From positions 65,533,427 through 65,553,426 of the forward strand of contig NC_057718.1 of NCBI RefSeq assembly GCF_004010195.1: DNA of 20,000 nucleotides, written 5' to 3'. The notes beneath the pieces were generated by a model, which saw only the letters and a program-made list of their open reading frames with translations, made no database searches and was not told the DNA's origin. This document shows, piece after piece, positions 1 to 19,280 of the stretch. Within the stretch, counting starts at the first letter, position 1; the number at the start of each line of letters is the position of its first letter. The stretch comes from Chiloscyllium plagiosum. Its lineage: Eukaryota. Made by a program: the position numbers and the translations under genes.

Positions 1-283
1 TATAGGGCAAGCCAAACAAAGAACAGCCAGGGAATTCCTAGAAGCATAGCACTCATCCACAAACTCCATCAACAAACACATCGACCTGGACCCAATATAC
101 CGGCCACTACAGCGGACAGCTGAAACTGACAACCGGAAGCGGCAGGGACAGGCCACTATAAATGCCGGAGGAAACACCACAGAAGCGCTTCACAGGAGGC
201 TCCCAAGCACTGAGGATGTCACCTAGACAGGGGACAAAACGTTTGCAACAAAACTTTCCAGCTCGGCGAACACAACCACAACA
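1..283 (+). mobile_element. Penelope-like retroelement 3' end: GIY-YIG endonuclease C-terminus plus pseudo-LTR with hammerhead motif
   Basis: Frame from base 2 reads IGQAKQRTAREFLEA*HSSTNSINKHIDLDPIYRPL, matching the REFLEAWHS...IN.HIDLD.IY type PLE C-terminus (TGG>TAG stop). A hammerhead-like motif follows at 207-246. Confidence 0.8.
207..246 (+). ncRNA. Degenerate minimal type I hammerhead ribozyme in PLE pseudo-LTR
   Basis: gca (stem I), CTGAGGA (210-216), gtcacct/agac/aggggac (stem II), aAAAC-GT-t, tgc (stem I). The core GAAA reads AAAA. Confidence 0.7.
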
Positions 284-425
284 GTTCAAACAATAAAGGT
301 ATTTGAGCATTTTAAAATTGTGCTTTATGTGCAACAGATGGAGGCAACTAACAGTAGTTTAATGTAATTAAACTAGGAGAGAAAAATAAGATGAACAGAG
401 TAAAATTTAGAGCAAAAGTACATGT

Positions 426-725
426 TTAGATTAAATTCCTTTATAGTGTGGAAACCGGCCATTTGGCCCAACCAGTCCACACCGACCCTCCAAAGAGTAA
501 CTCGTCCAGGCCCATTCCCCTACATTTACCCCTGACTAATGCTCCCAACAATATGGACAATTTAGTATGGTCAAAGTCACCTGACCTGCACATTTTTGGA
601 TTGTGGGAGGAAACCAGAACACTCAAACTGGGAGAATGTGCAAACTCCACACATACAGCCATCTGAGGTGGGAATTGAACCCAGGTCCCTGGCAGCAGTG
701 CTAACCACTAAGCCACAAGTGCCGC
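426..725 (-). mobile_element. HE1-like tRNA-derived SINE
   Basis: Minus strand begins gcggcacttgTGGCTTAGTGGttagc (A box) and has GGTTCAATTCC (B box). Body is homologous to 15826-16126 and 17448-17750, with a LINE-like 3' tail. Confidence 0.85.
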
Positions 726-827
726 AGTTGTGGAGATGTGCCCTAAATAAACTTGCTGTATCAGGAACAAGGTAAATGAACTGTGCGCTCAAATGCAACA
801 TGTGGGGAATAAGATGGTAGACATTAA

Positions 828-1399
828 TGGTCATGTTGCAGCTATACATGTTAGGCCACTTTTGGAATACTGCATGCAGTTCTGGCTTCTCTGCTTTGGG
901 AAAGATGTTGTGAAAGTTGTAAGGGTTCAATAAAGATCTACAAGGATGTTGCCAGGGTTGGAGGATTTGAGCTATAGGGCGAGGCTGAATAGGCTAGGAG
1001 TATTTTTACCTGGAGCGTCGGAGGCTGAGGGTGACCTTTTATCGAGGTTTTAAAAATCATGAGGGGCATGGATAGGGTAAACAGACAAGGTCTTTACCTC
1101 TGGGGGAATCCAGAGCTCGAGGGCATAGATTTAAGGTGAAAGGGGAAAGATAGAAAAAGGACCTAAGGGGTAACGTTTTCACGCAGAGAGTGGTACTTGT
1201 ATGGAATGAGCTGCAAGAGGAAGTAGTGGAGGCTGGTACAATTACAATGTTTGTAAAAGGCATATGAATAGGAAAGGCTTAAAAGGATATAGGCCCAATG
1301 CTGGCAAATAGGAGTAAAGTAATTTAGCACGTTTGTTTGGCATGGATGAGTTGGACTAGAGGGTCTGTTTCCATGCTGTACAGCTGACTCAATGACTCA
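828..1399 (+). mobile_element. CR1-clade LINE, 5'-truncated 3' fragment
   Basis: Decayed ORF2 C-terminus (RPLLEYCMQFW...RRLR) and 3' tail gggtctgtttccatgctgtaca...tgactc. Homologous to 5490-6070 and 6664-7281. Confidence 0.9.
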
Positions 1400-1451
1400 G
1401 CTCTGTGACACACGTTAGCAAAGTGAATTAAACTAGGAGCTTAACACACTA

Positions 1452-2155
1452 GTCATAGATATGTACAGCACGGAAACAGAATGCACAGTCCAATTCATCC
1501 AGATATCCTAATCTAGTCCCATTTACCAGCATTTGGCCCATATCCCTCCTAAACCCTGTTCACATACCCATGCAAACACCTTTTTAAATGCTGTAATTGT
1601 ACCAGCCTCCATCATTTTCTCTGACAGCCTATTCCATACACTGAACACCCTCTGTCTGAAAAAGTTGCCCCTTGGGTACCTTTTTATATCTTTTCCCTCT
1701 CGCCCTAAACCTTTGCCGCCTTGTTCTGGACTCCCCCACCCCCAGGGAGAAGACTTTACCTATTTATCCTACCCATGCCCCACATGATTTCATAAACTTC
1801 TATCGGGTCACCCCTCAGCCTCTGACACTCCAGGGAAAACAGCCCCAACCTATTCAACCTGTCCCTTTTTAGCTCTAATCCTCTAACCCTAGCAACAGCC
1901 TTTACTCAGCCCTTTCAAGTTTCACAAAATCCTTCTGATAGGAGGGAGACCAGAATTGCATGCATTATGCCAAAAGTGGCCTAACCAATGCCCTGTACAG
2001 CTGCAACATGACCTCCCAACTCCTGTACTCTTTACTCTGACCAATAAAGGAAAGCATACTGCCTTCGCTATCCTATTTTCCTGCAACTCTATTTTCAAGG
2101 ATCTATGAACCTGCACTCCAATGTCTTTTTGTTTGGCAGCATTCCCCAGGACTTT
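1452..2155 (-). mobile_element. CR1-clade LINE 3' fragment (antisense)
   Basis: Reverse complement of the same ORF2 end and tail (agtcatagatatgtacagcacggaaacag...). Minus ORF 1922-2116 begins VQVHRSLK (GTG start). Confidence 0.9.
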
Positions 2156-2559
2156 ATCAAACTCCTATTGACATTTGCCTTTGTGTATATGTCAGCTGAT
2201 ATGTAGCATTGCAATTTTGATGGGAACTTTTAATTTTTTTTATTTGTGGTTTGCAACGCGTCTGAATACATGCCTTGAAAGGGATGAATTTGCTGTGTCT
2301 GGAAGATTTTCTGCAGCAACACATCCTCGAGCCAAATTTAGTCAATAGCTGAATGGAGCAGGAACATTTACCTGATAATTATAAGGATATGATTAAACAA
2401 GACAATTGACCTGCCTCCGTCTTGTTCTGTGTACTTTCCTTTATTTGCTGGGTTGATCTTTCTGCCTTCCATTTGTTTCTGCATGTTGCATTTGAATAGT
2501 GTGAATTAAGTAATTCACATTAAGCAATTTGCACCTGACTTGGGCACAACCCTTGTTTC

Positions 2560-2781
2560 TTCACTGCCCATACTAATGTTTAGCTGTTTCATTGTGAAAA
2601 CTTCTGTTATTTTAATTTACCCTGGCCTCTACTTTGGCACATTTTCTACTTTTGTTCTTTTTGTGCTCTCTCCTCCACTACTGCCTTAAATCTTGAATTT
2701 GTATTTCTGTTCATTTCTGATGAAAGACCATTAATCTGAACTCTGCAGAGAAACAGATTCTAGTTGATCTGAATTTTCCCA
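2560..2781 (+). mobile_element. Old PLE pseudo-LTR remnant with decayed hammerhead
   Basis: Pyrimidine-rich tract, then ttCTGATGAaagaccattaatctGAActct (core 2717-2723) and a decayed cagat...gatctg motif. Same layout as 7903-7999. Confidence 0.5.
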
Positions 2782-2814
2782 CCCTTTAGTTGTTTGGAAG
2801 CAGGAAGCATGAAA

Positions 2815-3575
2815 CAATGACTAAGATTCCTGATTTAAGTAAAGCTAACTTTGGTGGGATGAAAGAAGTCCTGTCTGCAGTAAAGTGGGCAACACTTACT
2901 GGTAGTGATGTTAAATAATGGGAAGTGTTCTAAAGAAAATTTTAGTATTAGTAAAAATTCACTACCCTTGAGTGCAAACACCTGTCAAAAAGATAGCCAC
3001 AGCAAGTCAGAATAAAACTTCAAATTACAACTGTAGAAATGCAACAGCACAGATACTCAAAGATACAAAGAATTGCCAAGGTGACAAAATAAATTCAGCT
3101 CCACAAAGAGATTTGCACTGAATATTGGAATTATTATACCCAAATGGAATACTCCTCTTTTCATGGAGAGAACTGGAATTCCAGTGGAGGTAAAATGTCA
3201 TGCTTCAATAGTACAAAACTCTGGTTAACACCTACATCAGGTATTCAGAGCACTGCTGAGCACTACACCTTAAAACGGATGTATTGGCCTTAAATGGAGT
3301 GCAACATTTATTTAGCCAAATGATGCCTAGATTGCTAGGGTTAAATTGAGAAGGCAAAGTTGGTTGTAGATAAGATAAAGAGGTAAATTGACTCAATCTT
3401 GCAGAATATTAAGGGGAGCAGAACAGAGAATTTGGGACAAAGTCTTTCTGTTGGTTAAGGAGTCTTGAACTACAGCATACTGTCTGAGGACTAGAACCAA
3501 GCCTTTCAAGAGTAAAGTTAAGAAATACAATTGCACACAGAACCTTTTCACGTATCGAACACCCTTCCAGTAATG
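2815..3575 (+). mobile_element. Ancient, internally deleted CR1-clade LINE
   Basis: KIPDLSKANFGGMKEVLSAVKW resembles the CR1 post-endonuclease linker. 3190-3340 resembles the decayed ORF2 C-terminus (gtcatgcttcaatagtacaaaactctggtt...ggatgtattggcctt...ggagtgcaac). Confidence 0.6.
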
Positions 3576-3649
3576 GCAGGATCTAAAAGTTGAAGTTCTG
3601 AATTGGAGGAAGGCTAATTTTGACTGTATTAGGCAAGAGCTTTCAAAAG

Positions 3650-3812
3650 GAGAAAGTGAGGGCTGCAGATGCTAAAGATCAGAGTCAAGAGTGTGGTGCT
3701 GGAAAAGCGCAGCAGGTCAGGCAGCATCCAAGGAGCAGGAGAAAAGATGTTTCAGGCATAAACCTCATGAAGGGCTTATGTCTGAAATGTCAATTCTCCT
3801 GCTCCTTGATGT
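3650..3812. mobile_element. Short non-autonomous PLE/retrozyme-like palindromic insert with 15-bp TSD
   Basis: Flanked by aagagctttcaaaag (3635-3649) and aagaactttcaaaag (3813-3827). Inverted repeat 3725-3811 is centred on tcatga, with a hammerhead stem II and GAAA on both strands. Confidence 0.8.
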
Positions 3813-4606
3813 AAGAACTTTCAAAAGTTAATTGGGGGCAGATGTTCACAGATAAAGGAACGGCTATAAAATGGGAAGCCTTCAGAAATGAGATAACGAG
3901 CATCCCCAGAGACAGTATATTCTTGTTTGGGTGAAAGGAGAGGCTGGTAGGTGCAGGGAATGCTGGATGACCAGAGATGTTAGGTTTTAGTCAAGGAAAA
4001 GAAGGAAGCATATATCAGGTATAGACAGGATAGATTGAGTGAATCTTTAGAGTGTAAAGGCAGTAGGATTATACTGAAGAGGGAAATCAGGAGGGCAAAA
4101 AGGGGACATGAGATAGCTTTGGCAAATAGGGTTAAGGAGAATCCAAAGAGATTTTATAAACACATTTTAAGGACAAGAGGGCAACTATGGGTAGAATAGG
4201 GTCCCTCAAAGATCAGTAAGGCAGCCTATGTGTGGAGCCACAGGAGATGGGGGAGATACGAAACTAGTATTTTGTATCCATGTTTACTGAGCAAGATATA
4301 GAATGTGGAGAAATAGATGGTGACATCTTGAAAAATGTCCATATTACAGAGGAGGATGTGCTGGATGTCTTGAAATGCATAGACATGGATAAATCCCCAG
4401 GACCTGATCAGATGTACACTAGAACTCTGGGAAGCTAACGAAGTGACTGCTGGGTCCCTTGCTGAGATAGTTGTATCATCGATAGTCACAGATGAGGTGC
4501 CAGAAAACTGAAGGTTAGCTAACATGGTGCCATTATTTAAGAAAGATGTTAAAGAAAAGCCAGGGAACTATAGACAGGTGAGCCTGATGTCAGTGGTGGA
4601 CAAGTA

Positions 4607-4717
4607 CGGGGAGAATGCGGGTAAGTGGAGTTGAGATGCCCATCAGCCATGATTGAATGGCGGAGTGGACTCAATGGGCCGAATGGCTTTACTTCCGCTC
4701 CTATGGCTTATGGTCTT
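4607..4717 (+). mobile_element. 3' tail of a second CR1-clade family nested in the LINE
   Basis: Interrupts the SVV(G)K|LEGILRD motif and is flanked by aagta (4602-4606, 4718-4722). Similar to the reverse complement of the tail at 10423-10515. Confidence 0.8.
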
Positions 4718-6139
4718 AAGTAGTTGGAGGGAATCCTGAGGGACAGGAATTACATGTATTTGGAAAGGCAAGGATTGATTAGGGATAGGCAATATGGTTT
4801 TGTGCATGGAAAATCATGCCTCACAAACTTGATTGGGTTTTTTGAAGAAGCAACAAAGGATTGATGAGGGTAGAGTGGTGGACGTGATCTATATGTACTT
4901 CAGTAGGGCATTCGACAAGGTTCCCCGTGGGAGACTGATATTAGCAAGGTTAGATCACATGGAATACAGGGAAACCTAGCCATTTCGATACTGAACAGAT
5001 TGAAGGTAGAAGACAGAGGATGGTGTTGGAGGGTTGCTTTTCAGACTGGAGGCCTGTGACCAGTGGAGTGCCACAAGGATCACTGCTGGGTCCACTACTT
5101 TTCATCATTTTATATAAATGATTTGGATGTGAGCATAAGAGGTTATAGTTGGTAAGTTTGCAGATGACACCAAAATTGGAAATGTAGTGGACAGTGAAGA
5201 AGGTTACCTCAGATTACAATGGGATCTTGATCAGGTGGACCAATTGGTTGAGGAGTGGCAGATGGAGTTTAATTTCGATAAATGTGAGGTGCTGCATTTT
5301 GGAAAAATCAAATCTTAGCAGGACTTATACACTTAATGGTAAGGTCCTGGGGAGTGTTGTTGAACAAAGAGACCTTGGAGTGCAGGTTCATAATTCCTTG
5401 AAAGTAGAGTCACAGCTAGACAGGACAGTGAAGAAGGCGTTTGGTATGCTTTCCTTTATTGATTAGAGTATTGAGTACATGAGTTGGGAGGTCATGTTGC
5501 GGCTGTACAGGGACATTGGTTAGGCCACTTTTGGAATATTGCATGTGAATCTGGTCTCCATCCAATTGGACAGATGTTGTAAAACATGAAAGGGTTCAGA
5601 AAAGGTTTACAAAGATGTTGCCAGGGTTGGAGGGATATGAGCTATAGGGAGAGGCTCAATAGGCCAGGGCTGTTCTGCCTGGAGTGTCGGAAGCTGAGGG
5701 GTGACCTTTTACAATGGTTGATAAAGTCATGTGGGGGCATTGATAGGATAAATAGACAGTCTTTTTCCTGCGGTGGTTGAGTCCAGAACTGGAAGGCATA
5801 GGTTTAGGTGAGAGGGAAAAAATTTAAAAGGGACCTAAGTGGCAACATTCTCACAGAGGGTGATGTCTGTACGGAATGAGCTGTCAGAGGAAGTGGTGGA
5901 GGCTGGTACAATTGCAACATTTAAAAGGCATCTGGATGGGTATATGAATAGGAAGGGTTTGGAGCAATATGGGCCAAGTGCTGGAAAATGGAGTAGATTA
6001 GGTTAGGATATCTGATCGGCATAGACGAGTTGGTCCGAAGGGTCTGTTTTCGTGCTGTACATCTGACTCTAAATTAGTGATGAATTAATTTAAAATTGAG
6101 ATGGATATTAAAGGATATGGGGAAAGGTGATATATGGAG

Positions 6140-6663
6140 TAGTGATGCAGTCATCAAAACAGGATCTTCTGTCCACCAAGACTATGTCGACCCAGAAGCA
6201 CCAAACTCTGTTAATCCAATTTACCTATACTTGGTACATAGCCTTCTACGCCTGGGCATTTTCAGTACTCCTCCAGCTGCTGCTTTAATGTTGCAGGAGT
6301 ACCTGCCTCCACCCTCTCAGGCAACATGTTCCATATCTGCCGCACTCTGGTTGGAAAAACAATTGTTCGGATCTCCCCAAACCACTTGCTCCTTGCCTTT
6401 TTAAACTTTGCCTTCTGGTCTTGCACATGTCTGCCGTGGGGAAGATTAACTCCTGTCTATGCTTATAATTTTCTATACCTCCATCAAGTTCCACCCCCAC
6501 TTCCCCAACCTCCTCAACATTTTCTGCTCCAACGAAAAGAAACACAGCCTATCCAGTCTCCTCCTCCCGTGTTAACACTTTTTATCCCAGGCAACGTTCT
6601 AGTGAATCTACGCTGCACCCTCTAATACAATGACATTCTTCTGATAGCATGGGAACCAGAACT
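6140..6663 (-). mobile_element. Older CR1-clade LINE (antisense), segment 1
   Basis: Decayed reverse-complement 3' region (cccaggcaacgttctagtgaatctacgctgcaccctct...gggaaccagaact). Left boundary is approximate. Confidence 0.75.
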
Positions 6664-7281
6664 TTTGTTGGTCAGAGTATTGAGTACATGAGTTGGGAGG
6701 TCATGTTGCGGCTGTACAGGACTTTGGTTAGGCCACTGTTGGAATATTGCAAGCAATTCTGGTCTCCTTCCTATCGGAAGGATGTTGTGAAACTTGAAAG
6801 GGCTCAGAAAAGATTTACGAGGATGTTGCCAGGGTTGGAGGATTTGAGCTATAGGGAGAGGCTGAACAGGCTGGGGCTGTTTTCCCTGGTACGTCGGAGG
6901 CTGAGGGGTGACCTCTATAGGGGTTTACAAAATTGAGGGGCATGGATAGGGTAAATAGGAAAAGTCTTTTCCCTGGGGTCGGGTAGTCCAGAACTAGAGG
7001 GCATAGGTTTAGGGTGAGAGGGGAAAGATCTAAAAGAGACCTAAGGGGCAACTTTTTCATGCAGAGTGTGGTATGAGTATGGGATGAGCTGCCAGAGGAA
7101 GTGGTGGAGGCTAGTACAATTGCAGCATTTAAGAGGGATTTGGATGGGTATATGAATGGGAAGGGTTTGGAGGGATATGGGCTGGCAGGTGGGGCTAGAT
7201 AGGGTCGAGCTACCTGGTCGGCGTGGACGAGTTGGACTGAAGGGTTTGTTTCCATGCTGTACATCTCTATGATTCTATGAC
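6664..7281 (+). mobile_element. Younger CR1-clade LINE 3' fragment
   Basis: ORF reads FVGQSIEYMSWEVMLRLYRTLVRPLLEYCKQFWSPSYRKDVVKLERAQKRFTRMLPGL...RRRLRGDL. Intact tail ctatgattctatgact. Confidence 0.95.
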
Positions 7282-7562
7282 TTCCTTGCTTCTATATTCA
7301 GTGTCCTGGCTAATGAAGTGCATCTTCTTGTATGATCCCTTCACTCTGGTTAATTGTGCTGATACCTTCAGGGATCTATGGACTTGTACACCAAGGTCCC
7401 TCTGTTCCTCAGTACTTCCTCGGGACCTACACTTCATTGTGTATATCTTTCCTTTATTAGATGTCCCAAAATGCATCACTCCTCTCTTATCCGGATTAAA
7501 TTCAATCTGACATTGCTTTGCCCAATTTACCAGCTGTTCAATATCTGACTGGAGCCTGAGAC
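7277..7562 (-). mobile_element. Older CR1-clade LINE (antisense), segment 2
   Basis: Minus ORF LQSDIEQLVNWAKQCQIEFNPDKRGVMHFG...EQRDLGVQVHRSLK...EYRSKEV. Confidence 0.9.
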
Positions 7563-7653
7563 TCAAAGAACTGTGGATGTAGGAAATGAGAAACAAAAAC
7601 AAATTAGTGGAAAGTTCCAGCAGGTCTGGCAGCATCTGTGAAGAGATGTCTAA

Positions 7654-7690
7654 GTTTACATTTCAGGTTGAGTTACACTTCCTCAGAACT
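7654..7690 (-). ncRNA. Minimal type I hammerhead-like motif (left arm)
   Basis: Minus strand reads agtt CTGAGGA agtgtaactcaacct GAAA tg TA aact. Confidence 0.6.
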
Positions 7691-7902
7691 CTAGGTATGA
7701 ACACCTTTGAAGTGCTGCTCCTCTCTCTGACCGGATTTCTCTTCCAATCATTTTCCTTGTCCACCGTCCTTAATTTCATTATTGTTCCTGGTGTTCAACC
7801 AAGGTATTTGATAAAACTCTCTTCCACAGCCCATATTGCATTCCTCAGTTATTGTCTCCACCTCAGATTCATCCCATATAGTTTACAACTTCAGTTTCAC
7901 AA

Positions 7903-7938
7903 AGTTCTGAGGAAGTCAGTTGACCTGAAACATTAACT
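7903..7938 (+). ncRNA. Minimal type I hammerhead-like motif (right arm)
   Basis: agtt CTGAGGA (7907-7913) a gtca gt tgac ct GAAA (7927-7930) ca TT aact. Confidence 0.6.
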
Positions 7939-8009
7939 CTGATTTTTCAACATAGCTGCTGCCAGATCTGCTGAGTTTTTCTATCAATTTTATTTTTGTA
8001 GCCTGAGAC

Positions 8010-8365
8010 CATTCTCTTCACTCCACTTCAGTTTTCATGCCATCTGCCAACTTATAATTACACTTTCCACATTCAAATTCCTGGAATTCCAATCTGCAAG
8101 GAATTGTGGGTCAACCTACAGCGTGTGGACTGCAGTGGTTCAAGAAGGCAGCTCACCACCATCACCACCTTAAGGCACCTAAGGACAGGCAGTAAATGCT
8201 GGCCAGCCAATACTGACCATCCTGATCAATTCCTTTCCAAGCATTGATGAATTCTTCTTTGAGAAATTTTTCCAATAATTTCCCTACCATTGACGTCAGA
8301 CTAGGTAGTCTGTGTAATTACCTGGCCTGTCCCTGTTTTCTTTTTTGAACAAAGGATGAATGACC
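8010..8365 (-). mobile_element. Older CR1-clade LINE (antisense), segments 3-4, internally deleted and interrupted
   Basis: Minus strand gives KLADGMK (decayed KFADDTK) at ~8035-8055, and PLFKKENRDRPGNY...LTSMVGKLLEK at ~8265-8360. Confidence 0.75.
8079..8221 (+). mobile_element. 3' end of another shark LINE family
   Basis: tggactgcagtggttcaagaaggcagctcaccacc...aaatgctggccagcc matches my recall of a common elasmobranch LINE 3' end. A decayed relative is at 15510-15748. Confidence 0.6.
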
Positions 8366-9129
8366 CCTAGACTGCTAACTGTTTTGATCCTGTTAGCCGT
8401 GATCTTAACCAGGCTCAGGAGGTGGCTAACCAGGAGTGGTCTTGTGTTTCTACATACTTGATTCCAATTATGAACATGCATCACTGTGTTTCCTTTTTTT
8501 TAAGTTGTATACTTCGAGGAAATGTTGCTGGAGCCTTTGCTTTTGAACTGGGGTCATTTTATATTTCTCATTCAAGGTCTCTGTATTGATTGAGGTTAAT
8601 TATAATTTGTTTTCAGGGCCAAGCACTTGTTGAGACAGTTTTTTTTTTCTTGCCATTTTTTTTTTCTCTTTTAGGTGCTGAATATTAACAGGTATATCAA
8701 CAGCACTCCAGTACTTTTCCCAGATGGTCATTTAACTTGTCACAAGTGCCCAACATTGAATACCTGTTGGATGATTTGTGTAGCCATCACAGTCACTTGA
8801 TCCTGAGTATTCACTTGCACACCTTTCAATGTTCTGCTGGCATGTGATGGAAATTGAAAATGTTACATTGCTTTGCCTACCTTCTGGCCTTTTTCTAGTT
8901 CAAAGGAGTCCTACTTGACCTACTTTTACTGCTTCAGCTGCTTATCACTTTTTATATTGCTTATTGTGAAATATAGTTTGCCCATGCTTCTGTGAAGCAT
9001 CTATGTTTGACTGTTAAAGTTGCTCTACAAATACAAGTTGTTGCTTGTTTATGTCCATGTCATTAAACTGTTTTGAAAACTGAGCTTTGCATCATCAAGT
9101 CAGCATGAATCATGTACTTTTGAAGGTAA

Positions 9130-9447
<318 letters not shown>

Positions 9448-9559
9448 TGAGAGTAACCATATCTTTTTAATGTATTATTTGTTGTTTTATCTATATGATT
9501 AAACATTTGATACAAAAGATTTCCATGACACAGGTTTGTTTTTCATTACTTATGGAGCA

Positions 9560-9593
9560 CCAATAAAATCATCATGTCTGATGATTTTATTGG
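9560..9593. repeat. Perfect 15-bp inverted repeat with 4-nt loop
   Basis: ccaataaaatcatca-tgtc-tgatgattttattgg. Confidence 0.95.
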
Positions 9594-9605
9594 AATAACT
9601 TCTAG

Positions 9606-9925
9606 ACTAGATTCTCCAAAGGCTTGTGGATCTCCAGAGTACCAACAATTTATAAAGGTGATTTGGACTGAACCTTTTATCTTCGGAAGGAGAAAGCTGT
9701 GGAGAAACGTGATAGATATCTTTAAAATCAGAAAGGGTTTTAGAGTATAAACCTAGAGGTGTTTTCATTTGCAGGGTTGTCCAAAAACTAGAGGCTCTGA
9801 ATATAAAATAATCACGAGTGAATTCAATATGGAATTCTGGAGAAACAGTGGCAAGAATGTAAGGGTTTGCTACCACAAGGAATGTTCGAGGTGGATAGCA
9901 TTCATGCACTTAGTTGTAAACATGG
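9606..9925 (+). mobile_element. Ancient CR1-clade 3' fragment
   Basis: ggagaaagctgtggagaaacgtgatagatatctttaaaatcagaaagggtttt resembles RRLRGDLIEVFKIMKGF, followed by ccaaaaactagagg. Confidence 0.6.
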
Positions 9926-10422
9926 ATCATGAATGTCGATGAATTGTTTTCTTTCAACTTTTTTTTATTATTTTGAGGACATGAAGGTTTGGGTACATCA
10001 GTTCTCTTGTTGACTTGCTCTTTTTAGTGTCACAGGGTCATTTCCACTTTCCTTTCAGTAAGGGAGAGCAGTTTACGAAGGAAGGCTGAATCAGAACTCT
10101 TACCGGGAGATTTTCTTTTTGTTACTTCACCATACAGGAGGGATGTAGAAATTTAAGGATTTTTAAACTCGTTTGCAGACTGATGTTTCTTAATTTGCTA
10201 CATAAACAGTTCAGCCATTTTGTCTACCGTGCCGCCCCCACTGCTTGAATAAGACAACATTGTGGATGCAATTCACAATGAGTCATCCACAGCTCTTGGT
10301 TGAAAGCTGTGTCTTTTCCTAAGTGGTCTTTTATTTGAATGAAGGCTTAGGATTGAGTTTGGCATTCTCGTGCCTCCTCTCTGCTGCATACCCCGTTCGC
10401 CTGGCTCAGTTTCATCCTGGTA

Positions 10423-11535
10423 AATAGAATAGATAATAGACAATAGGTGCAGGAGTAGGTCATTCAGCCCTTCAAGCCTGCACCACCATTCAATATGATC
10501 ATGGCTGATCATCCTTAATCAGTATCCTGTTCCTGCCTTATCTCCATAACCCTTGATTCCACTATCCTTGAGAGCTCTATCCAACTCTTAAATGAACCCA
10601 AAGGGCAGAGCATTCCACACAGCCACCCCTCTCTGGCTGAAGAAGTTTCTCCTCATCTCTGTCCTAAATGATCTACCCTGTATTTTTAAGCTGTGTCCCC
10701 TGGTTCGGCACTGACCCATCAGCAGAAACATGTTTCCTGCCTCCAGAGTGTCCAATCCTTGAGACATAAGATTATTAAATCAGATCCCCTCTCAGTCTTC
10801 TAAACTCAAGGGTATACAAGCCCAGTCGCTCCAGTCTTTCAGCGTAAGGTAGTCCCACCATTCCAGGAATTGACCTCGTGAACCTACACTGCACTCCCTC
10901 AATAGCCAGAATGTCTTTCCTCAAATTTGGAGACCAGAACTGCACACCGTATTCCAGGTGTGGTCTCGCCAGGGCCCTGTACAGTTGCAGAAGAACCTCT
11001 TTGCTTCTATACTCAATCCCTCTTGTTGTGAAGGCCAGCATGCTATTAGCCGCCTTCACTACCTGCTGTACCTGCATGCTTACCTTCATTGACTGGTGTA
11101 CAAGAACACCCAGAACTCTCTGTACTGCCCCTTTACCTAAATTGATTCCACTTAGGTGGTAATCTGCCTTCCTGTCCTTGCCACCAAAGTGGATAAGGAT
11201 CCATTTATCCACGTGAAAGTGCATCTGCCATGCATCTGAGCACTCACCTAACTTGTCCAGGTCACCCTGTAATCTCCTAACATCCTCCTCACGTTTCACC
11301 CTGCCACCCAGCTTAGTAAAATCAGCAAATTTGCTAATGTTATTACTAATACCATCTTCTATATCATTAACATATATTATAAAAAGCTGTGGTCCCAGCA
11401 CTGATCCCTGCGGTACCCCACTGGTCAGTGCCTGCCATTCGAAATGGAGCCGTTTATCACTACTCTTTGTTTCCTATCAGCCAACCAACTTTCAATCCAA
11501 GTTAGTACCTTGCCCCCAACACCATGCGCCCTAAT
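10423..11535 (-). mobile_element. CR1-clade LINE (second subfamily), 5'-truncated RT fragment
   Basis: Minus ORF 10775-11401 reads LGPQLFIIYVNDIEDGISNNISKFADFTKLGG...ERLGLYTLEFRRLRGDLI, with upstream WIESWLADRKQRVVING. Short-repeat tail (ctatt) at 10423-10446. Confidence 0.95.
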
Positions 11536-11539
11536 CGGC

Positions 11540-11980
11540 TTTGAGAACAGCTCGTAACTACGATTGGTTCCTGGGTGAATGTGATAAGGAGGTCCATTTG
11601 AGGTGTGGTAGTTATACGAGCATCTTGGCGGAAAGCTTGTAAGTATTGCTGCCACGCACTTCAGGTGAAACTTGGCTGGGTGAGTCTGTTATTTACTTCT
11701 CTGGCAGTTAAATCTCTATGCTCCCATGACACATCAAGTTTCTCTTTGGCGGTTGTAAGATGCTCTCCATCTCTCTCGCAACAGCTTCAGTCCCCTCTTC
11801 AGTGCCTTGTGCTGGGCACAGCAGGATATGACAATTTTCGAACCTCTTCCAAAGTCGTATTGATGAACATCTCTGAATCTATCTAGACAGCGGGGCCTCA
11901 GCTTAATCAGTGCATTGGTTTGCTCCATTGATGATGCTGTAGTGATTTGGTTCCTGTTGTATCTCTATATACTTTTGAGT
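11540..11980 (-). mobile_element. Possible decayed RTE-clade LINE C-terminal fragment
   Basis: Minus frames give KALKRGLKLLRERWRASYNRQRE and PSFT*SAWQQ, loosely similar to the RTE C-terminal helix and zinc knuckle. Weak. Confidence 0.3.
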
Positions 11981-12259
11981 TCCTCACTGCGTCAGCAGTC
12001 ATTGGCCATCCTCTGCTTTCTAGGGTCCTGCCATTGAGGCTACTTGATAGAGAGAACATCTATAGATTCTAATGTTGGATAAAACAATCATGGTAGCACC
12101 CTTGATATCTGATGCAGACCTATGTATGATGCTCTTGTGGTGGCCACAGACCATCTGCACATAAACACGTTTGAAGCCTTTTCAGTTAACAAAGACAAAT
12201 GACTCATCAGATAGTGATTGCTTAAAATCAAGGCACCCTTGGACTAATGGAAATTAAGT

Positions 12260-12376
12260 GAGACCCTCTTGTGGAGCAGCAGTAGTGTCCCTACACCTGA
12301 ACTTGTGGAGGCCTGAGTTGAAGAAATTTGCTCAGAAATGTGTAATAATATCTCTGTTTAGATTTATTAGAAAAAA
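12260..12376 (+). mobile_element. Old short tRNA-derived SINE remnant
   Basis: tgtggagcagcagtagtgtccctac (A-box-like), cctgagttgaag (decayed B box), and an A-rich end. Confidence 0.5.
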
Positions 12377-12620
12377 TAGGTTAAATTTTTTTAAAAAGGG
12401 AAATTTATGTGAAGTTACCAGCTTTCTGGGTCCAACTGCCCTCATTCATGTCAAAGCCAATATCACTGGAAACCTTAAAGCATAAGATACTGGTGTTTTG
12501 AGTCACTTATTGTACATGACGCATGTGGGCTACAACTCCCTTGTTCCACTGCTGGATCTGACACCTCCCTATACCATCAAAGTGTCTGCCGCTGATGCCT
12601 GGAACTTTACTTTCAGAATA

Positions 12621-13201
12621 CAGGGGAACCTCTATTTATCCGAACTTGATGGGCGGGCACTCTTTCGTTCGGTTAACCGATTAAATGCATTCCTCTGGGG
12701 CTTGGAGCTTTTAAAGTCTGCTCCTTGTTCAGGAGACTGCAGCGGCCCAGCCCCCAACCCTGTGCAATACCTCCCCCTGCCCGCAACATCTACCCCCACC
12801 CCCTCTCCGGGGCAGCTGGACTGGACACCAACAACAAGTCTGCTGCAGTTGCCTTTGTGGAGAAAGTCTCCATATAGTGCGTGTGCACACAGCCACACAA
12901 CTTTTTTACTGCAACTTTTTGACAGGTTCCACCTTTGCCCTGTACAGGACAACGTTGGAGAGATTATCTGGGGAAGGAGGCTTTAGGGTACACCCCTTTG
13001 TAGAACTCCAGGGAAAGTGTGAGGAGAGAGAGAGGGCAGGCAGGCTGTCATTTGGAGACGGTGCCTGTTTAATCACTGTAAACAAAAGATGTGATCACTG
13101 TTGGAAACCATGTCTTTGTAATGTTTCCATCGGAACTCGAGATCTCCTTCGTGTAATCCAATTTTCGGATAATTGGTATTCGGATAATCGAGGTTCCTCT
13201 G
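12621..13201. mobile_element. Non-autonomous Tc1/mariner-superfamily (Tigger/pogo-like) DNA transposon, MITE
   Basis: TA at 12619-12620 and 13202-13203. TIRs caggggaacctctatttatccgaa and ttcggataatcgaggttcctctg; subterminal repeat ttcggataat at 13164-13173. No transposase. Confidence 0.85.
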
Positions 13202-15369
13202 TACAGCAGCAGACTACTATGGAAAATAAATGATTTGCTTTCTCATGGCTTTTCTATTCTACAAGGGATCTATCACAATGTTGTTTGGCTCTGCATTTAT
13301 GAAGGAGCCCTGATTGGAGTCTCCTGTTAGAAATGCGGAGCTCCGTATGTCTTTATTTAAAAAATGTGAGTCGGCATGACATTATCCTCTTCAGAAATCC
13401 CATTCCTTTGCCTTCATTTGAATTGCAACTCTGTGTACGGCTGCATGCAACTATTATAAAGTCCAATGCTGTTAAAGTTGCTGTTCCTGTTACTGTGGCT
13501 ACTGGATTGCAGCAAACTGCATTTCCTTCTTAGTGTGTTCAAACGATAGTGAAATAAGTAGTTCCCATTTTGATCACAAATACTTGTAGACAAGATGTTG
13601 AAGTGGAGCACAGAGAACTTGGGCACTTGGTATTTGTGAACAAAGTTGCTGTTCTTAGAAAATCATGCGTTCACGCAAATGTAATAAATCCAGAAAATAC
13701 TAGCGTTTCATTGTGGCTTTCCACAAGCTTACTAATTTCAGCCTTCATACTGTTGCTAGCAGGTCAGTTCTCATTGATCAATAACTTCCCGCTGTGCACT
13801 TGTCTCCTTCACCCTGACAAGATTTTAAAAATATCTTGGAACTATGCATTGCTTGCAAAGTCAAAATGCAGAGTTAAATAAACTTCTTAATTGTCTTAAT
13901 TGCTTTCCCATCAGAATGAAGTGAGTCTAATGATGAACTGTGAATCAAGCCCAGCATTGTCTTTCAGGAATTGACTCCTTGTATGCAAACATGCCCATGT
14001 TTGGCAGGGAAAGTTCAACCCCAGTGTATGTGGGGATAAAAGGAGATTTGCATTTCTTTCTATTTTACAGGTCCATTGAACGTTGTCCATTTTATTATGC
14101 ATGTGGCAGCTCATTGCTAAGATTGTCCCAGAGTAATGCTACAACCTCCTGGGCTCTCCTGAAACCTGTCTTCCTTTATTTATCCAGTTTTTGCTTTTAA
14201 AAGATGCAGTAATCTTTGCCTCAAGAGTTCTTTGTGACACCATGTACCATTTTCCAGTAATTGTTTATTTAAAATAAAAATGTTCTTAGTATCTCCTACT
14301 TTTAATGAAAACAATAAATTGTTAATTCAATCCTCACTGAATCTCCAAAGGACATAATCTTCTATGCATATTCACAACATTTTAAGACACCTTTTTTTAA
14401 AAAAGGTTAATTTACTTCAGTTAAGGAACAGGGTCTACTTCACTGAAACTTTAGTTACCTCCCCTTGGCAACATTCTGATGAATTGTTATACTTTAACAT
14501 TAAATTTCTTCAGATATTAGCATAAGTGTACATTTTGTTCAAATTTGCCATTGGTACTTGGATCTTGTACTCTGTGCCCATATATATCTCTTCAATGATG
14601 CAGTCCTCTTTTCCATGAATACGTTTAACTTGCATGGTATTCATTTTTCATTAAGAATATCTAACTTGTAATGTATTTATACCCAACTGATTTTCCTTGA
14701 TGAAAAATGAGCTCTAATTTTACAAAATAAAAATGTTCTAGGAATGCTGTTATAGTAGGTCCTAGTTATTAATGGCTTTGAGTTCTATGGTCAAGTCAGT
14801 AACTTTGGAGGGTTGTACAAAGTTATGTTCTTGGCATAAGTTCTGACATAATGTTTGAGAGATTCATAGGACTTATTGACGTATTCAATCTCTTTTTTTT
14901 GCTTAAGGATTAGTGAAGAGTTTGAGACTGTAGCTAATTTTATTCAAGAACTAGGACATCTACAGCTACTGGAGTTGGTTAGTTTAGACATTCCTTGTCT
15001 TTTGGCAGCCATCTCCTGAAGTTCCTATAACTTGATTGCCTTACTGAGGGAAGGCTGTTACATTCTCCATCTGTTTTGACTTTTATGTATGAATCATACA
15101 TTTTAGGGTTGGTGAAACGCTATTATGGGTTCTTCATTCGAAGATAAGGCTAACTATTGCACACCTAATTTGTCCCTTGCTGCTTTCAGATGGACTATTC
15201 TCTATTCTGTTGAGGTGTGTAATGATTATCGTTAGTTTAAGTTGTGGTATCACAAAAATACATATATTTTTGGAGTTACTGATTTAAATAAGTCATTAAA
15301 CTAAGGTCCTAACTGCTTGATGACTGTTTGTTTCAATGTCAAATAGAACTGTTCAAGAATGATAGCAGC

Positions 15370-15451
15370 AAGGTCAGGATATCTGGTTGGCATGGATGAA
15401 TTGGATCAAAGGGTCTGTTTCAGTGCTGTACGCTTGTATGACTCTATAACT
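15370..15451 (+). mobile_element. CR1-clade 3' tail only
   Basis: ggatatctggttggcatggatgaattggatcaaagggtctgtttcagtgctgtac...tatgactctataact matches the tail at 6000-6070. Confidence 0.85.
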
Positions 15452-15509
15452 TCAATTTATAAAACATATTAAACATGTTAAAATATCCCAAAACACTTCA
15501 CAGAAGCAG

Positions 15510-15748
15510 TTAAGAGTATAAGGACAGCAAATGCTTGAGAACACGACAACTGCAAGTAACTCTCCTCCAATTGTCTCACTGTCCTATTTTGGAATTAGAT
15601 TCCTGTTCAGTCACTATCACTAGGTCAAGACCCTAGAATTATCTTCATAACAGCACATTGAGAGTACCTAAAAACCTAAGGAAGGTAGGTCACCACTGTT
15701 ACTTCATTTAATGTTGGTCTAGCTTGCAATGCCCGCATCCCATGAATG
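15510..15748 (+). mobile_element. Decayed LINE 3' end, same family as 8079-8221
   Basis: aaggacagcaaatgcttgagaacacgacaactgcaag...aacagcacattgagagtaccta...gaaggtaggtcaccact...gcccgcatcccatgaatg. Confidence 0.55.
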
Positions 15749-15825
15749 GGTAGGAGAAAAAGTGGTGGCGAGGTACAGATACAGGGAGAAAGTCCAGATT
15801 TTCCGATAGATGGGAAAGGATTTTT

Positions 15826-16126
15826 TTAGACTAGATTCCCTACATTGCGGAAACAGGCCCTTTGGCCCTCCAAGTCCACACCGACCCTCCAAAGAGTAAC
15901 CCACCCAGACCCATTCCTGTACTCCCTACTAATGCACCTATCACTGTGGGCAATTTAGCATGGCCAGTTCACCTGACCTGCACATCTTTGGACTGTGGGA
16001 GGAAACCCACGCAGACACTGGGAGAATGTGCAAACTCCATGCAGACAGTTGCCCAAGGCTGGAATCGAACCCGGATCCCTGGTGTTGTGAGGCAGCAGTG
16101 CTAACCACTGAGCCACTGTGCTGCCC
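15826..16126 (-). mobile_element. HE1-like tRNA-derived SINE
   Basis: Minus strand begins gggcagcacagTGGCTCAGTGGttagc (A box) and has GGTTCGATTCC (B box). Homologous to 426-725. Confidence 0.9.
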
Positions 16127-16362
16127 TGGTGATGGACAGGTCAAGAGGGCAGTGCCAAGTTGGAGGCTCTGGACTGGGATAAGGTGGGGGGAGTTGTGGA
16201 AACTGGTGAAATCCACATTAATCCCATGTGGTTGCAGGGTCCCAAGGCAGAAGCTGAGGCATTCTTCCTCCAGGCGTCGAGTGGTTAGGATTTGACAATG
16301 GAGGAGGCACAGGACCTACGTGTCCTTGGTGGAGTGGGAGGGCGAGTGAAATGTTCAGCCAC
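16127..16362 (-). mobile_element. Penelope-like element GIY-YIG C-terminal fragment
   Basis: Minus strand with one frameshift reads VAEHF..PSHSTKDT*VLCLLHCQILTTRRLEEECLSFCLGTLQPHGINVDFTSF, a typical PLE VA.HF...HS...LGTL.P.G.N end. Confidence 0.8.
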
Positions 16363-17296
16363 CTTAGCACCTTAGGCCTGACAAGAACTATGCAAAGTTA
16401 ACTTGAGATCCAAACCCTGTGGTAGACTGATACTCTGCAAGAAACATTTTGCCTATAATGTTGGAATATACATTGCAAGGCCATGTGCTTCTCAAAACCG
16501 TGCCTGTTTTCTCCTAATTTCTTCAGTTGGGTTTCCTCACTGCAGCTTTAAAATGTCCTTATCAAAGTCACATCACAGCATTTCTGTGCCTCCTGTTCAC
16601 AGTCAATCATTGCTTTTTGTTTCTGTATCTGTCTGAAGTCTTTGTAATAGATATGGGCCTCAGAAACACTTCTGTCAAAGCCTATTTTTATGATCAAATG
16701 GATTGCAAAAATCAAATGAGCCTCACGTCTGGATGGAAATACTGATTTGGCTTTTCTTGAGAGCTCCAACCTTTTTTCAATCTGAAAATGTTTAGTTTAA
16801 AGCACAGCTATCTGCAGCCTGTCTGTCACAAACTTTGGAAGCCCATAGTCTATCCACTGTGAGACTTAGACATCGATTGCTGCCAATGTCTGAGTATAAC
16901 CACCCGAGCATTGAAAATGTCTGTGGCCCCTTTCTGATGTCTAACAATCAAACCACTCACACTTTCTGTCAAGCAGATTTCAAACTTCCTTTTTCCTCCC
17001 CCTAACCTCTTCATCTCACATTAATTAAAGACAACCTGTGAAAGCTCACCACTGTAATAATTACTATTTATTCAGTCATAGATACTGTGTCTTACTCTGG
17101 TTTGTCTTCCTTAGTTTGATCATTTCACCTGAGAGTCCCTGTGTGATCTATCCTTAGCCACTTCTGATTCATGTCTTCAGACTGCCTATAAGATCAATAT
17201 CTGAAAATATTGGATTCCAATTGTGTAAAGATGATATCCACCTTTTTTGATATTTTCCTCTCCTATCACCTTTGTTGCTACAATTGGTTTGTCATT

Positions 17297-17364
17297 AACG
17301 TCGATTCTCCTGTTCCCTGGATGCTGCCTGACCTGCTGCGCTTTTCCAGCAACACATTTTCAGC
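17297..17364 (+). mobile_element. Fragment of the hammerhead-bearing PLE/retrozyme-like family
   Basis: 17305-17351 is the reverse complement of 3697-3743 (45/47 identical). It starts at aacgtcgatt, the 3' end of the hammerhead core. Confidence 0.8.
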
Positions 17365-17447: not shown

Positions 17448-17750
17448 AATCATAATCATAGAACCCCTACATTGTGAAAGCAGGCCATTCAGTCCATTGA
17501 GTCTACACCAACCCTCCAAAGAGCATCCTACCTAGCCCCAACTCCCTAATCTATCCCTGTAACCCTGCATTTCTCATGGCTAATCCACCTCATCGGCACG
17601 TCTTTGGACTGAGGGAGGAAACTGAAGCATACCCACATGGACACTGGGAGAATATGCAAACTCCATGCAGATAATCATCCAAAGCTGGAATGAAACCAGG
17701 TTCTGTGGCGCTGTGAGGCAGCAGTGCTAGCCACTGAGCCACTGGGCTGC
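17448..17750 (-). mobile_element. HE1-like tRNA-derived SINE (older or different tail variant)
   Basis: A box TGGCTCAGTGG and B box GGTTTCATTCC on the minus strand. Body is homologous to the other two copies; (aatcat)2 tail. Confidence 0.85.
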
Positions 17751-19280
17751 TCTAAATGGTGACTCTAAGAATGTAAGGAGTAAATTGAGCAGTAGCATTT
17801 ACACCTTAAAAAAAAAACAGAAGTTGCTACTGGGTATACCCTTGGCCGCCTCAGACCTTTGCTGATAGATTTCTTTGCAAAGTCTGGGTAATTGCATTAA
17901 ACACACCAGAGGTATGTGGGACTGCTGTATTCAGGAATAAGTTACTTGTTAAACATTGTTAATTTTACAATTGTGAAGTATCATTCTGTCACACTTTAAT
18001 TTGTTGGAGATAAAAGATTACCAGGAAGTGTAGAAATCTCATTTTGATCCCATCTTTATTTTGCTTTCTGTACATGATTTTATACTCTGATTTAGATCTA
18101 TCTTTAAGAGTTCCTTTGTCCGATTTTTGAGAAATCTTGAAATTTTGTTTCCAATTGACAGTTTAGATCCACTGGAGAGGATGCCATGCTGAAAATAATC
18201 TATCAGTCGTACTAGCCATCATTCAGAAAATTTGCCGGATGTTTTGTAGAAGCTTTTACTGTGCTTTTGATGTTGGCTGCAAAATTTATCCTGTTGTCTT
18301 GTATCCTTGCACAAACCATTTTTTTTTTCAGCTATTGATCCTGTCCCATTTGCTTTTGGCTATTGTTTGAGGTAAAACCAGTATTCACAATTTCAGAATC
18401 CTATTCACAACTAAGCTGAGCTGGGAGCCATATCTTCTCTGCCACCAAGATCCTCCATACTGTCTATCATTGACTGCTGGAATTCTTATCCATCTATTTG
18501 TTATTGCTACCGCAAATGAAGAGTACAGAAGGAATATTGCAGTGAGGCCACAATAATTAAAAGTCAGGAGTTTTAACTTGGACTTTTGTCCTCCTCTCAG
18601 GAGCCATATGTCATTGAGCACAGGTGTAATGTGTGATGGAATTTTGAGAAAATTAAGACATGACCAACATGGTTTTGGATGAATTAAAGTTTGTGGAAAC
18701 ATTGGAATATAAGTCTACCACATCTCTGCACTCTTCGAAATTTGGCCTCTTATTCCTAATTTACCCCACCCAATCATTCAGCTGTTTTAAATTTCTCCCT
18801 TAATCTCAGGCTCAAATCGCTTATATCGCTTATAAAATACTGATCAATAAACTAGGTTTTTAAAAAAAGCTTGCATCCTAGTATTGCCTTCTGTTGTCTG
18901 CCAAACATAGTTAGTTCTGTGAGGCATTGTGGAGATTAATGCCACATTACAAATACGAATAGTTGTATGGAAATGGTTAACTTTCTACTCGTGCCATATA
19001 GCTGGTTGTAATTGACTTCCTAATACTCTTACAAGCAATTGAATGCACTTCCCAATACATAACTGGCAAAACGCAATCATTGTACATGAATAGGTTTCTT
19101 TCGCACATTTTCCAAACTTCAAATCCTATCCCACAAATACACAATAATCTTTAGTGGACTGGTATACCTATTATAATATCACTAGATACAATGCAGTGCT
19201 TTATGTAATAATTGGGCTGAAATTCACTGACATTTTAGTAATGCAAACCAGCAAACCAGTAATGGTAAAACAGCTAACAT

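What the first reader, a model, noticed from the sequence alone, without database searches (positions are those of the whole stretch)
207..17364. Recurrent minimal hammerhead-ribozyme modules from several Penelope-like/retrozyme-like families in one gene's introns
Seen: CTGAnGA-hairpin-GAAA-(c/t)(g/a)tH motifs at 210, 2717, 3764 (partial, both strands), 7686 (-) and 7907, plus a truncated copy at 17297. Those other than 210 share a downstream gatgctgcc.gacctgctg-like motif (very decayed at 2717). Known: PLEs and retrozymes carry minimal type I hammerheads with a tiny palindromic stem III and are thought to cleave as dimers. Inference: this genome has abundant short ribozyme-carrying mobile units, in both orientations relative to the CNKSR3 pre-mRNA. 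All copies here carry core or stem mutations.
Basis: partly seen in the sequence, partly recalled or inferred. Interest (0 to 1): 0.75.

Follow-up and report, generated by a model that had tools for sequence, protein, structure and literature searches.

The report
Penelope retrotransposon ends carrying hammerhead ribozymes
These motifs are decayed end pieces of three Penelope-like jumping-gene families that are already known to carry a tiny hammerhead RNA motif, but across this shark-like genome their mirror-image insertions almost always have a short tail on exactly one arm and, in the short-copy families, tend to start just before the motif, which likely records both cut DNA strands being copied from an uncut, capped RNA.

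Summary
The motifs are real but are five insertions, not seven modules: pseudo-LTR (pLTR) remnants of three endonuclease-bearing Penelope-like element (PLE) families (A Poseidon-like; B, C Neptune-like), each linked to an RT/GIY-YIG frame elsewhere in the genome. Minimal hammerheads in PLE pLTRs are published, so this is a new member of a known kind, not a retrozyme. All window copies are damaged, but family majorities keep the full core; a 775-kb sample extrapolates to about 0.3 million intact cores. Two signatures bear on the unsolved PLE insertion mechanism. 73 of 76 classifiable unbiased head-to-head pairs carry the 36-39-nt tail on exactly one arm. In B and C, 5' ends pile up about 4 nt before the core, often after a G (68 of 100 in B), not at the cleavage site. 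Most likely the enzyme primes both target strands, one at each of two internal RNA sites, and runs off a capped, uncleaved RNA (inferred). No orientation bias in the host CNKSR gene (10 sense, 12 antisense). This scan has reported the same pattern before, in this and other genomes.

The parts
1..226 (+). Family A: C-terminal GIY-YIG region of a Poseidon-like PLE ORF. Premature stop at 47-49; the normal stop (224-226) lies in loop II of the hammerhead. The insertion begins about 1.16 kb upstream of the window with an inverted, tailed arm whose core is intact.
   Evidence: full-length relatives with RVT_1 E 2e-11
157..163 (+). TATA-like box in the family A pLTR (function inferred)
   Evidence: sequence
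207..283 (+). Family A minimal hammerhead (C3 at 210, G12>A at 236, predicted cut after 243, ATG at 216-218) and tail-less pLTR end
283..294 (+). 12-bp target-site duplication of the family A insertion (partner upstream of the window)
2712..2795 (+). Very decayed, probable family C pLTR; lacks stem II and GAAA; no duplication found; marginal
3648..3764 (-). Family B arm with tail (family positions +9 to +125), 5' core missing
3763..3812 (+). Family B partner arm (-1 to about +49), G5>C; forms a long hairpin with the other arm; target duplication 3635-3649 / 3813-3827
7561..7690 (-). Family C arm with tail (-4 to +127); core bases intact, stem II broken
7690..7899 (+). 5' part of the family C ORF (+162 to +371) captured between the arms
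7903..7999 (+). Family C tail-less arm (-4 to +94); core bases intact, 2-nt deletion in stem II; target duplication 7553-7562 / 8000-8009
9190..9354 (+). Host CNKSR-family exon (SAM domain), spliced to its neighbours in RNA-like contigs; first exon at about -44.5 kb, PDZ exons at about +124 to +132 kb
17297..17364 (+). Young family B fragment (+22 to +89), identical to the family majority, tail-less, 5' core absent; no clear duplication

Best explanation
These are decayed pseudo-LTR copies of three endonuclease-bearing Penelope-like retrotransposon families, and their shape likely arises because the element's enzyme nicks both target strands, primes one strand at each of two fixed sites 36-39 nt apart inside an uncleaved RNA, and, for the short copies, runs off the RNA's predicted capped 5' end just before the hammerhead. 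Shown here: family identity, ORF linkage, target duplications, two 3' end points per family, the one-tail rule, the 5' pile-up before the core in B and C (and, more broadly, D), and the G excess at that junction. Inferred: the transcription start and cap, two-strand priming, joining of the two cDNAs head to head (with or without template jumps), and that promoterless stubs are dead-end products. The hammerhead is a predicted, protein- or dimer-dependent ribozyme of the parent element that does not set the ends of most inserted copies. In this intron the copies are likely neutral fossils. I put identity as PLE pLTR at about 0.95 and the mechanistic package at about 0.6.
For: ORF links. A: RT+EN copies with pLTR-ORF-pLTR and an ATG inside the hammerhead. 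B: RT-like and GIY-YIG frames directly upstream. C: pLTR within about 1.1 kb downstream of a Neptune-like frame in 18 of 25 loci; D: 9 of 15 loci. Bimodal 3' ends in all four families. One-tail rule: 73 of 76 classifiable unbiased pairs (8 more of 84 had a short arm and were unclassifiable; p about 1e-18) and 93 of 100 classifiable targeted pairs (14 of 114 unclassifiable). Duplications in 131 of 166 pairs vs 20 of 150 random intervals. Single copies use both ends (B 49 tailed, 47 not). Either arm can be the longer (31 tail-less, 22 tailed, 20 equal of 73), and arms share subfamily variants (B 0.79 vs 0.55 shuffled). 5' ends: 36 of 90 unbiased paired B arms end at -6 to -1, only 2 of 90 run past -14, and 4 of 90 lie at the cut +/-2. 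A TATA-like motif lies 30 nt upstream in 47 of 61 promoter-bearing B copies. G precedes the start in 68 of 100 B and 41 of 100 C listed matches vs 26% expected; control junctions 7 of 24. In vitro, an anole Poseidon extends both strands, starts RT at two internal sites, and does not need ribozyme cleavage (PMC11167929).
Against: Family A shows no 5' pile-up: its 54 paired-arm ends spread from -459 to +56. Family D has a small excess at the cut site (6 vs 2.0 expected, p 0.01 uncorrected), though these include a local tandem duplicate and both arms of one insertion. The G before the start usually belongs to the target duplication where that could be traced, so endonuclease site preference could also explain it; 3 of 9 inverted cases are explained by the partner arm. 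In the first, smaller test the G excess was not significant for B (4 of 10, p 0.24; C 4 of 5). The 47 TATA-bearing copies are mostly one subfamily and were sought in a fixed window. No RNA data show the start: no pile of read starts at -4 or at the cut. PMC11167929 saw no strand difference in RT start sites in bulk. The Pfam hits for B are below the curated cut-offs, and Pfam did not detect GIY-YIG in A.
Confidence: 0.7

Rival explanations
1. The inverted arm arises by fold-back self-priming of one cDNA (or of an antisense template), with the endonuclease trimming the second arm to give the one-sided tail.
For: Proposed from palindromic junctions in PMC3846280; the tail is attributed to endonuclease resolution in PMC8557442. 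Arms share variants, and many junctions are palindromic.
Against: Fold-back from a tailed first strand predicts that the tailed arm is the longer one, but the tail-less arm is longer in 31 of 73 unbiased pairs. Tail-less single copies are as common as tailed ones. Pairs with unrelated element segments between the arms (window A and C) need jumps rather than a simple snap-back.
Confidence: 0.2
2. The 100-130-nt copies are independent non-autonomous elements (SINE-like or retrozyme-like) with their own transcripts or circular RNAs, mobilised in trans by PLE proteins.
For: Very high copy number and uniform ends. Retrozymes derive from pLTRs and were found in one chondrichthyan (bioRxiv 10.64898/2026.07.22.740005).
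Against: No tandem arrays in the window. Stubs begin at the predicted start and lack the TATA-like motif. Ends do not match the cleavage site, as cleavage-ligation circles would require. 93% of RNA reads on a B copy run on into unrelated sequence.
Confidence: 0.08
3. Hammerhead self-cleavage makes the template 5' end, or cuts the host pre-mRNA and so matters to the CNKSR gene.
For: Family majorities keep all core bases and paired stems I/II of differing sequence; slight cut-site excess in D; 8 intact-core sense arms in the gene span.
Against: No cut-site excess in B (4 vs 4.3) or C (6 vs 3.8, p 0.17). No orientation bias. The host exon is spliced normally in contigs. Window copies are damaged and two of them are locked in long hairpins. 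Monomeric minimal hammerheads were inactive in vitro (PMC4209133).
Confidence: 0.05

Closest known systems
Minimal type I hammerheads in pLTRs of metazoan PLEs (Cervera and de la Pena 2014, PMC4209133)
   Same: Same core, extra nucleotide after A9, G10.1-C11.1 pair, palindromic 15.2-16.2 junction and no helix III; mostly solo copies in several consensus families.
   Different: No shark is named in the parts I read. The sampled density extrapolates to about 0.3 million intact cores vs about 4,000 (coelacanth) and 9,000 (Xenopus), although my criterion is looser (no stem check). The main B subfamily has a U-U mismatch in stem I.
Poseidon from Anolis (PAc; Frangieh et al. 2024, PMC11167929)
   Same: ORF starts at the base of stem II (family A), two internal RT starts define the tail, both strands are extended, and no reads start or end at the cut.
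   Different: That paper does not report, in the parts I read, that the two starts are used complementarily on the two arms of one insertion, nor 5' run-off stubs. B, C and D are Neptune-like.
Inverted-pLTR PLE insertions with optional tail (PMC3846280; PMC8557442)
   Same: Head-to-head pLTRs, tail often at one end only, long target duplications, TATA plus initiator in the pLTR.
   Different: Described qualitatively and attributed to self-priming or endonuclease resolution; here counted (73 of 76) and dominated by ORF-less miniature forms.
Non-LTR retrozymes (PMC7229834; bioRxiv 10.64898/2026.07.22.740005)
   Same: Short, non-coding, type I hammerhead, pLTR-related.
   Different: Retrozymes are head-to-tail tandem repeats with (mostly canonical) hammerheads yielding circular RNA; these are solo or head-to-head copies tied to ORF-bearing PLEs.
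L1 twin priming and cap-derived extra G (passages in PMC11702581)
   Same: A second RT is primed from the other target strand; an extra G marks full-length 5' junctions.
   Different: L1 primes first at the poly(A) tail and second at a variable internal site, giving adjacent non-overlapping pieces; here both starts are fixed and the arms copy overlapping sequence.

Membership tests
Endonuclease-positive Penelope-like element | Single ORF with RT and C-terminal GIY-YIG attached to the repeat | tested here: met
   A: RVT_1 E 2e-11 and 8e-7; GIY-YIG motif seen by eye but not by Pfam. B: RVT_1 E 0.0065 and GIY-YIG E 3e-4, both below cut-off. C and D: linked to endonuclease-region frames.
Endonuclease-positive Penelope-like element | pLTRs in direct or inverted arrangement, optional 30-40-nt tail, long target duplication | tested here: met
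   L292 is pLTR-ORF-pLTR; tails of 36-39 nt in four families; duplications in 131 of 166 pairs.
Penelope/Poseidon (A) vs Neptune or Nematis (B, C, D) | Zn-finger-like Cys linker between RT and EN, absent in Poseidon (PMC8557442) | tested here: met
   Cys motif visible in B (L306), partly in C (L049) and D (L047), absent in A; read by eye.
Penelope/Poseidon (A) vs Neptune or Nematis (B, C, D) | Placement in an RT phylogeny with reference elements | not tested
   No reference PLE set was fetched; the clade names rest on the linker motif and recalled resemblance.
Minimal type I hammerhead | CUGAnGA, GAAA and UH core with stems I and II in the family majority | tested here: met
   Canonical majority at all 11 core positions in A-D. 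Intact cores in A 10 of 16, B 73 of 115, C 10 of 36, D 22 of 48 core-spanning arms. Stems paired, with a U-U in B stem I and an A-G in young A stem II.
Minimal type I hammerhead | Intact fold in the window's own copies | tested here: not met
   Every window copy has a core change, truncation or broken stem II.
Minimal type I hammerhead | Self-cleavage | not testable with these tools
   Needs an in vitro assay or cyclic-phosphate sequencing.
Non-LTR retrozyme | Head-to-tail tandem units, each with a complete hammerhead | tested here: not met
   No tandem array in the window; sampled copies are single or head-to-head. A genome-wide search for arrays was not done.
Non-LTR retrozyme | Circular RNA bounded by cleavage sites | tested here: inconclusive
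   DNA ends are not enriched at the cut in B or C; no back-joints in poly(A) single-cell reads, a library that would miss circles.

The most novel reading that the evidence does not exclude
The PLE 'tail' is the spacing between two reverse transcriptase active sites that prime the two nicked target strands on uncleaved, capped RNA. Inverted pLTRs are then the normal product of double priming, and the roughly 250,000 miniature palindromes in this genome are strong-stop-like run-offs that map each family's promoter to the first base of its ribozyme.
Probability: 0.5. Interest if true: 0.65.

Novelty: new member of a known kind. Interest (0 to 1): 0.42.

Why it matters
The hammerheads themselves are expected. 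What could matter is that PLE insertion structure (inverted pLTRs, a one-sided tail) is still unexplained in the papers I read, and this genome holds an estimated million pLTR arms whose ends give a countable footprint. The strict one-tail rule and the run-off before the ribozyme make a specific prediction that the published in vitro Poseidon system can test directly. They also argue against ribozyme cleavage and circularisation as the usual route to the template. Separately, about 70 long inverted pairs per Mb are a large potential source of intronic double-stranded RNA in sharks (untested).

Tried and rejected
Rfam scan: no hammerhead family hit; its miRNA-like hits at 3724-3813 reflect the palindrome. 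An apparent GTAA-core subfamily of B is most likely ascertainment by the query's flank, since partner arms keep GAAA; rejected. G12>A in 18 of 30 top family A hits is likewise biased toward the window's own variant; the unbiased majority is G (75%). Apparent 5' ends at -2 to -8 caused by subfamilies with a different upstream sequence were separated out (15 B and 5 D arms). Pfam found nothing in five partial frames. The MAFFT alignment across families did not align GAAA and was not used. A shared 3' stem in B and C is not significantly stable (z -1.0 and -2.0). Sequencing runs: no RNA holder listed; run X8 laid no reads; X7 had no locus-specific reads in these introns, so editing of the hairpins and cleavage of the pre-mRNA were not tested. 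Junction loci for the family C G-test could not be obtained, so only the matched letters were counted. Literature searches found no paper on shark PLE hammerheads, on complementary tail use, or on cap run-off in PLEs. The library lacks most subscription journals, and Repbase and Dfam were not available.
Full report
Setting. The window lies in a 3.56-Gb genome whose repeats look shark-like (recalled resemblance, no call names the organism). The exon at 9190-9354 matches the CNK2 SAM domain (E 1e-25). Recalled motifs place the first exon at about -44.5 kb and PDZ exons at about +124 to +132 kb on the + strand, and two contig runs splice the exon to both neighbours. The paralogue (CNKSR2 or 3) was not tested.

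Observation. The motifs are at the stated places but are not remarkable in isolation: CTGANGA occurs 18 times vs 12.8 +/- 3.4 expected, and neither Rfam nor a strict descriptor hits any of them. They are significant because each belongs to a large family. The descriptor finds 37 intact motifs in the surrounding 440 kb vs 1-4 in five Markov controls, and 58 in 80 evenly placed 10-kb stretches from 40 contigs. The seven sites are five insertions: family A ending at 283, with an inverted tailed arm upstream of the window and a 12-bp duplication; a family B palindrome at 3648-3812; a family C insertion at 7561-7999 with two arms around a piece of its own ORF; a young B fragment at 17297-17364; and a marginal C-like relic at 2717 (2.8% of random 135-mers score as well). 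All are damaged.

Identity. Positions below are relative to hammerhead base C3. Family A ends the ORF of a PLE with RT (RVT_1 E 2e-11) and a GIY-YIG-type C-terminus. L292 is pLTR-ORF-pLTR, with the start codon at the base of stem II, as in the anole Poseidon (PMC11167929, parts 1-2 of 4 read). Family B follows RT-like and GIY-YIG frames (weak Pfam hits). Family C follows a Neptune-like frame in 18 of 25 loci, and a fourth family D, absent from the window, in 9 of 15. B, C and D show the Cys linker that PMC8557442 (passages) gives for Neptune and Nematis; no tree was built. This is the minimal hammerhead of PMC4209133 (parts 1-2 of 4 read), which already reports solo copies in several families per genome and low, dimer-dependent activity. 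Retrozymes are tandem arrays (PMC7229834, passages; bioRxiv 10.64898/2026.07.22.740005, parts 1-3 of 5, supplements not seen, one chondrichthyan sampled); none is in the window.

Abundance. The 775 kb of non-N sample holds 231 arms, 54 inverted pairs and 67 intact cores: 298, 70 and 86 per Mb (bootstrap 256-339, 52-88, 67-107). Scaled to the assembly this is about 1 million arms, 0.25 million pairs and 0.3 million intact cores. The sample is systematic rather than random, and 'intact' does not check stems. One perfect 34-letter B pattern has 5,033 exact matches vs 0 for the reversed control.

3' ends. Each family has two end points 36-39 nt apart, the known tail. Among 84 unbiased head-to-head pairs (sample plus the 440-kb region), 76 were classifiable: 73 have one tailed and one tail-less arm, 3 have no tail, and none has two (p about 1e-18 against independence). 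Among 114 targeted pairs, 93 of 100 classifiable follow the rule. Duplications flank 131 of 166 such pairs vs 20 of 150 random intervals, with a lenient finder. Single copies use both ends. The tail-less arm is longer in 31, the tailed arm in 22, and they are equal in 20 of 73; arms share subfamily variants. All three paired window insertions have the tail on one arm only; in the B pair the other arm is cut short at about +49. PMC3846280 and PMC8557442 (passages) note the tail at one end and invoke self-priming or endonuclease resolution. A simple fold-back from a tailed first strand does not fit pairs whose tail-less arm is longer; priming of both nicked strands at the two sites does. This is inferred, and consistent with the both-strand extension and two internal starts seen in vitro.

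5' ends. Of 187 unbiased B arms, 88 begin at -14 to +1, 32 run upstream, 29 begin inside the ribozyme, 4 at the cut +/-2, 25 downstream, and 9 abut gaps. C and D are similar in kind. There is no cut-site excess in B (4 vs 4.3) or C (6 vs 3.8). D has 6 vs 2.0 (p 0.01), but with non-independent cases. The peak base is an initiator-like A at -4 in B and C, 30 nt below a TATA-like motif in 47 of 61 promoter-bearing B copies. Reads and contigs laid on a B copy drop several-fold there and at both 3' ends. Following a lead from earlier scan notes, I counted the base before that A when it is not the templated C: G in 68 of 100 B and 41 of 100 C listed matches vs 26% expected, and 7 of 24 at control junctions. 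An extra G marks capped full-length L1 insertions (PMC11702581, passages). Here the G is usually part of the target duplication, which fits a cap-derived C annealing to a target G but also a target preference. Family A shows no such peak; its copies are mostly ORF 3' ends.

Expression and host. In about 2% of a poly(A) single-cell run, 2,476 reads fit a B copy; 93% continue into unrelated sequence, and no place has many starts or ends. They look like passengers in host transcripts, and this library is a weak test of 5' ends. Within the gene span, 22 single arms split 10 sense and 12 antisense (p 0.83), and 15 intact cores split 8 and 7. The window's paired arms fold into long hairpins (-74 and -126 kcal/mol) that would sequester the motif.

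Verdict. A real, abundant, expected feature: new shark members of known PLE clades with minimal hammerheads. The added value is the quantified footprint of double priming and 5' run-off, which I did not find in print (the whale shark paper PMC8455134 only lists Penelope, one passage; PMC6155905, passages, restates the PLE link). I reached the tail rule and the start-site reading before consulting earlier notes. The scan has recorded both many times, including in this genome; those notes are not independent support.

Noticed in passing
window 12621-13201: About 580-bp element with imperfect terminal inverted repeats flanked by TA, likely a Tc1/mariner-type (Tigger-like, recalled) non-autonomous DNA transposon; seen by eye.
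   Followed up: no
window about 3560-6070, also 787-1390, 1579-2159 (-), 6664-7272, 19297-20000: Decayed CR1-type LINE copies (RT motifs; name recalled). The family B palindrome is inserted into one of them.
   Followed up: partly
window 442-720, 15841-16127, 17468-17753: Three copies of a SINE-like repeat of about 280 bp, resembling shark HE1-type SINEs by recall.
   Followed up: no
L225:5807-5940 and the flanking 440 kb: A fourth hammerhead-bearing pLTR family (D), absent from the window, with an AGCU-type palindromic junction and a clear TATA box.
   Followed up: yes
family B stem I: The main B subfamily has a U-U mismatch at the third pair of stem I (77 of the arms counted), while a minor subfamily pairs it; this may weaken the ribozyme and hide it from standard descriptors.
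   Followed up: partly
family C, about +140 to +170 (L067; near window 7690-7700): A branch-point and pyrimidine-tract-like signal ending in CAG just before the ORF start codon suggests a 5' UTR intron that may overlap the pLTR (by eye).
   Followed up: no
families B and C, +45 to +112: The shared downstream motif pairs with part of the tail, placing the first RT start in a loop; the fold is not significantly stable.
   Followed up: partly
about 127 kb upstream of the window (region offsets 82702 and 83106): Two family D fragments 404 bp apart with the same upstream sequence, starting one base after the predicted cut: a local tandem without the core.
   Followed up: no
L064, L069, L073, L089: Family C copies in which a 5' ORF fragment is joined directly to a pLTR starting just before the core, like the window's 7690-7999, suggesting template jumps from the RNA 5' end.
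   Followed up: partly
L043:1785-2273 (-): Open frame resembling an LTR-element integrase fragment (recalled resemblance) next to a family A copy.
   Followed up: no
L299:1631-2300: Family B ORF end with several tandem copies of an internal segment of about 140 nt.
   Followed up: no
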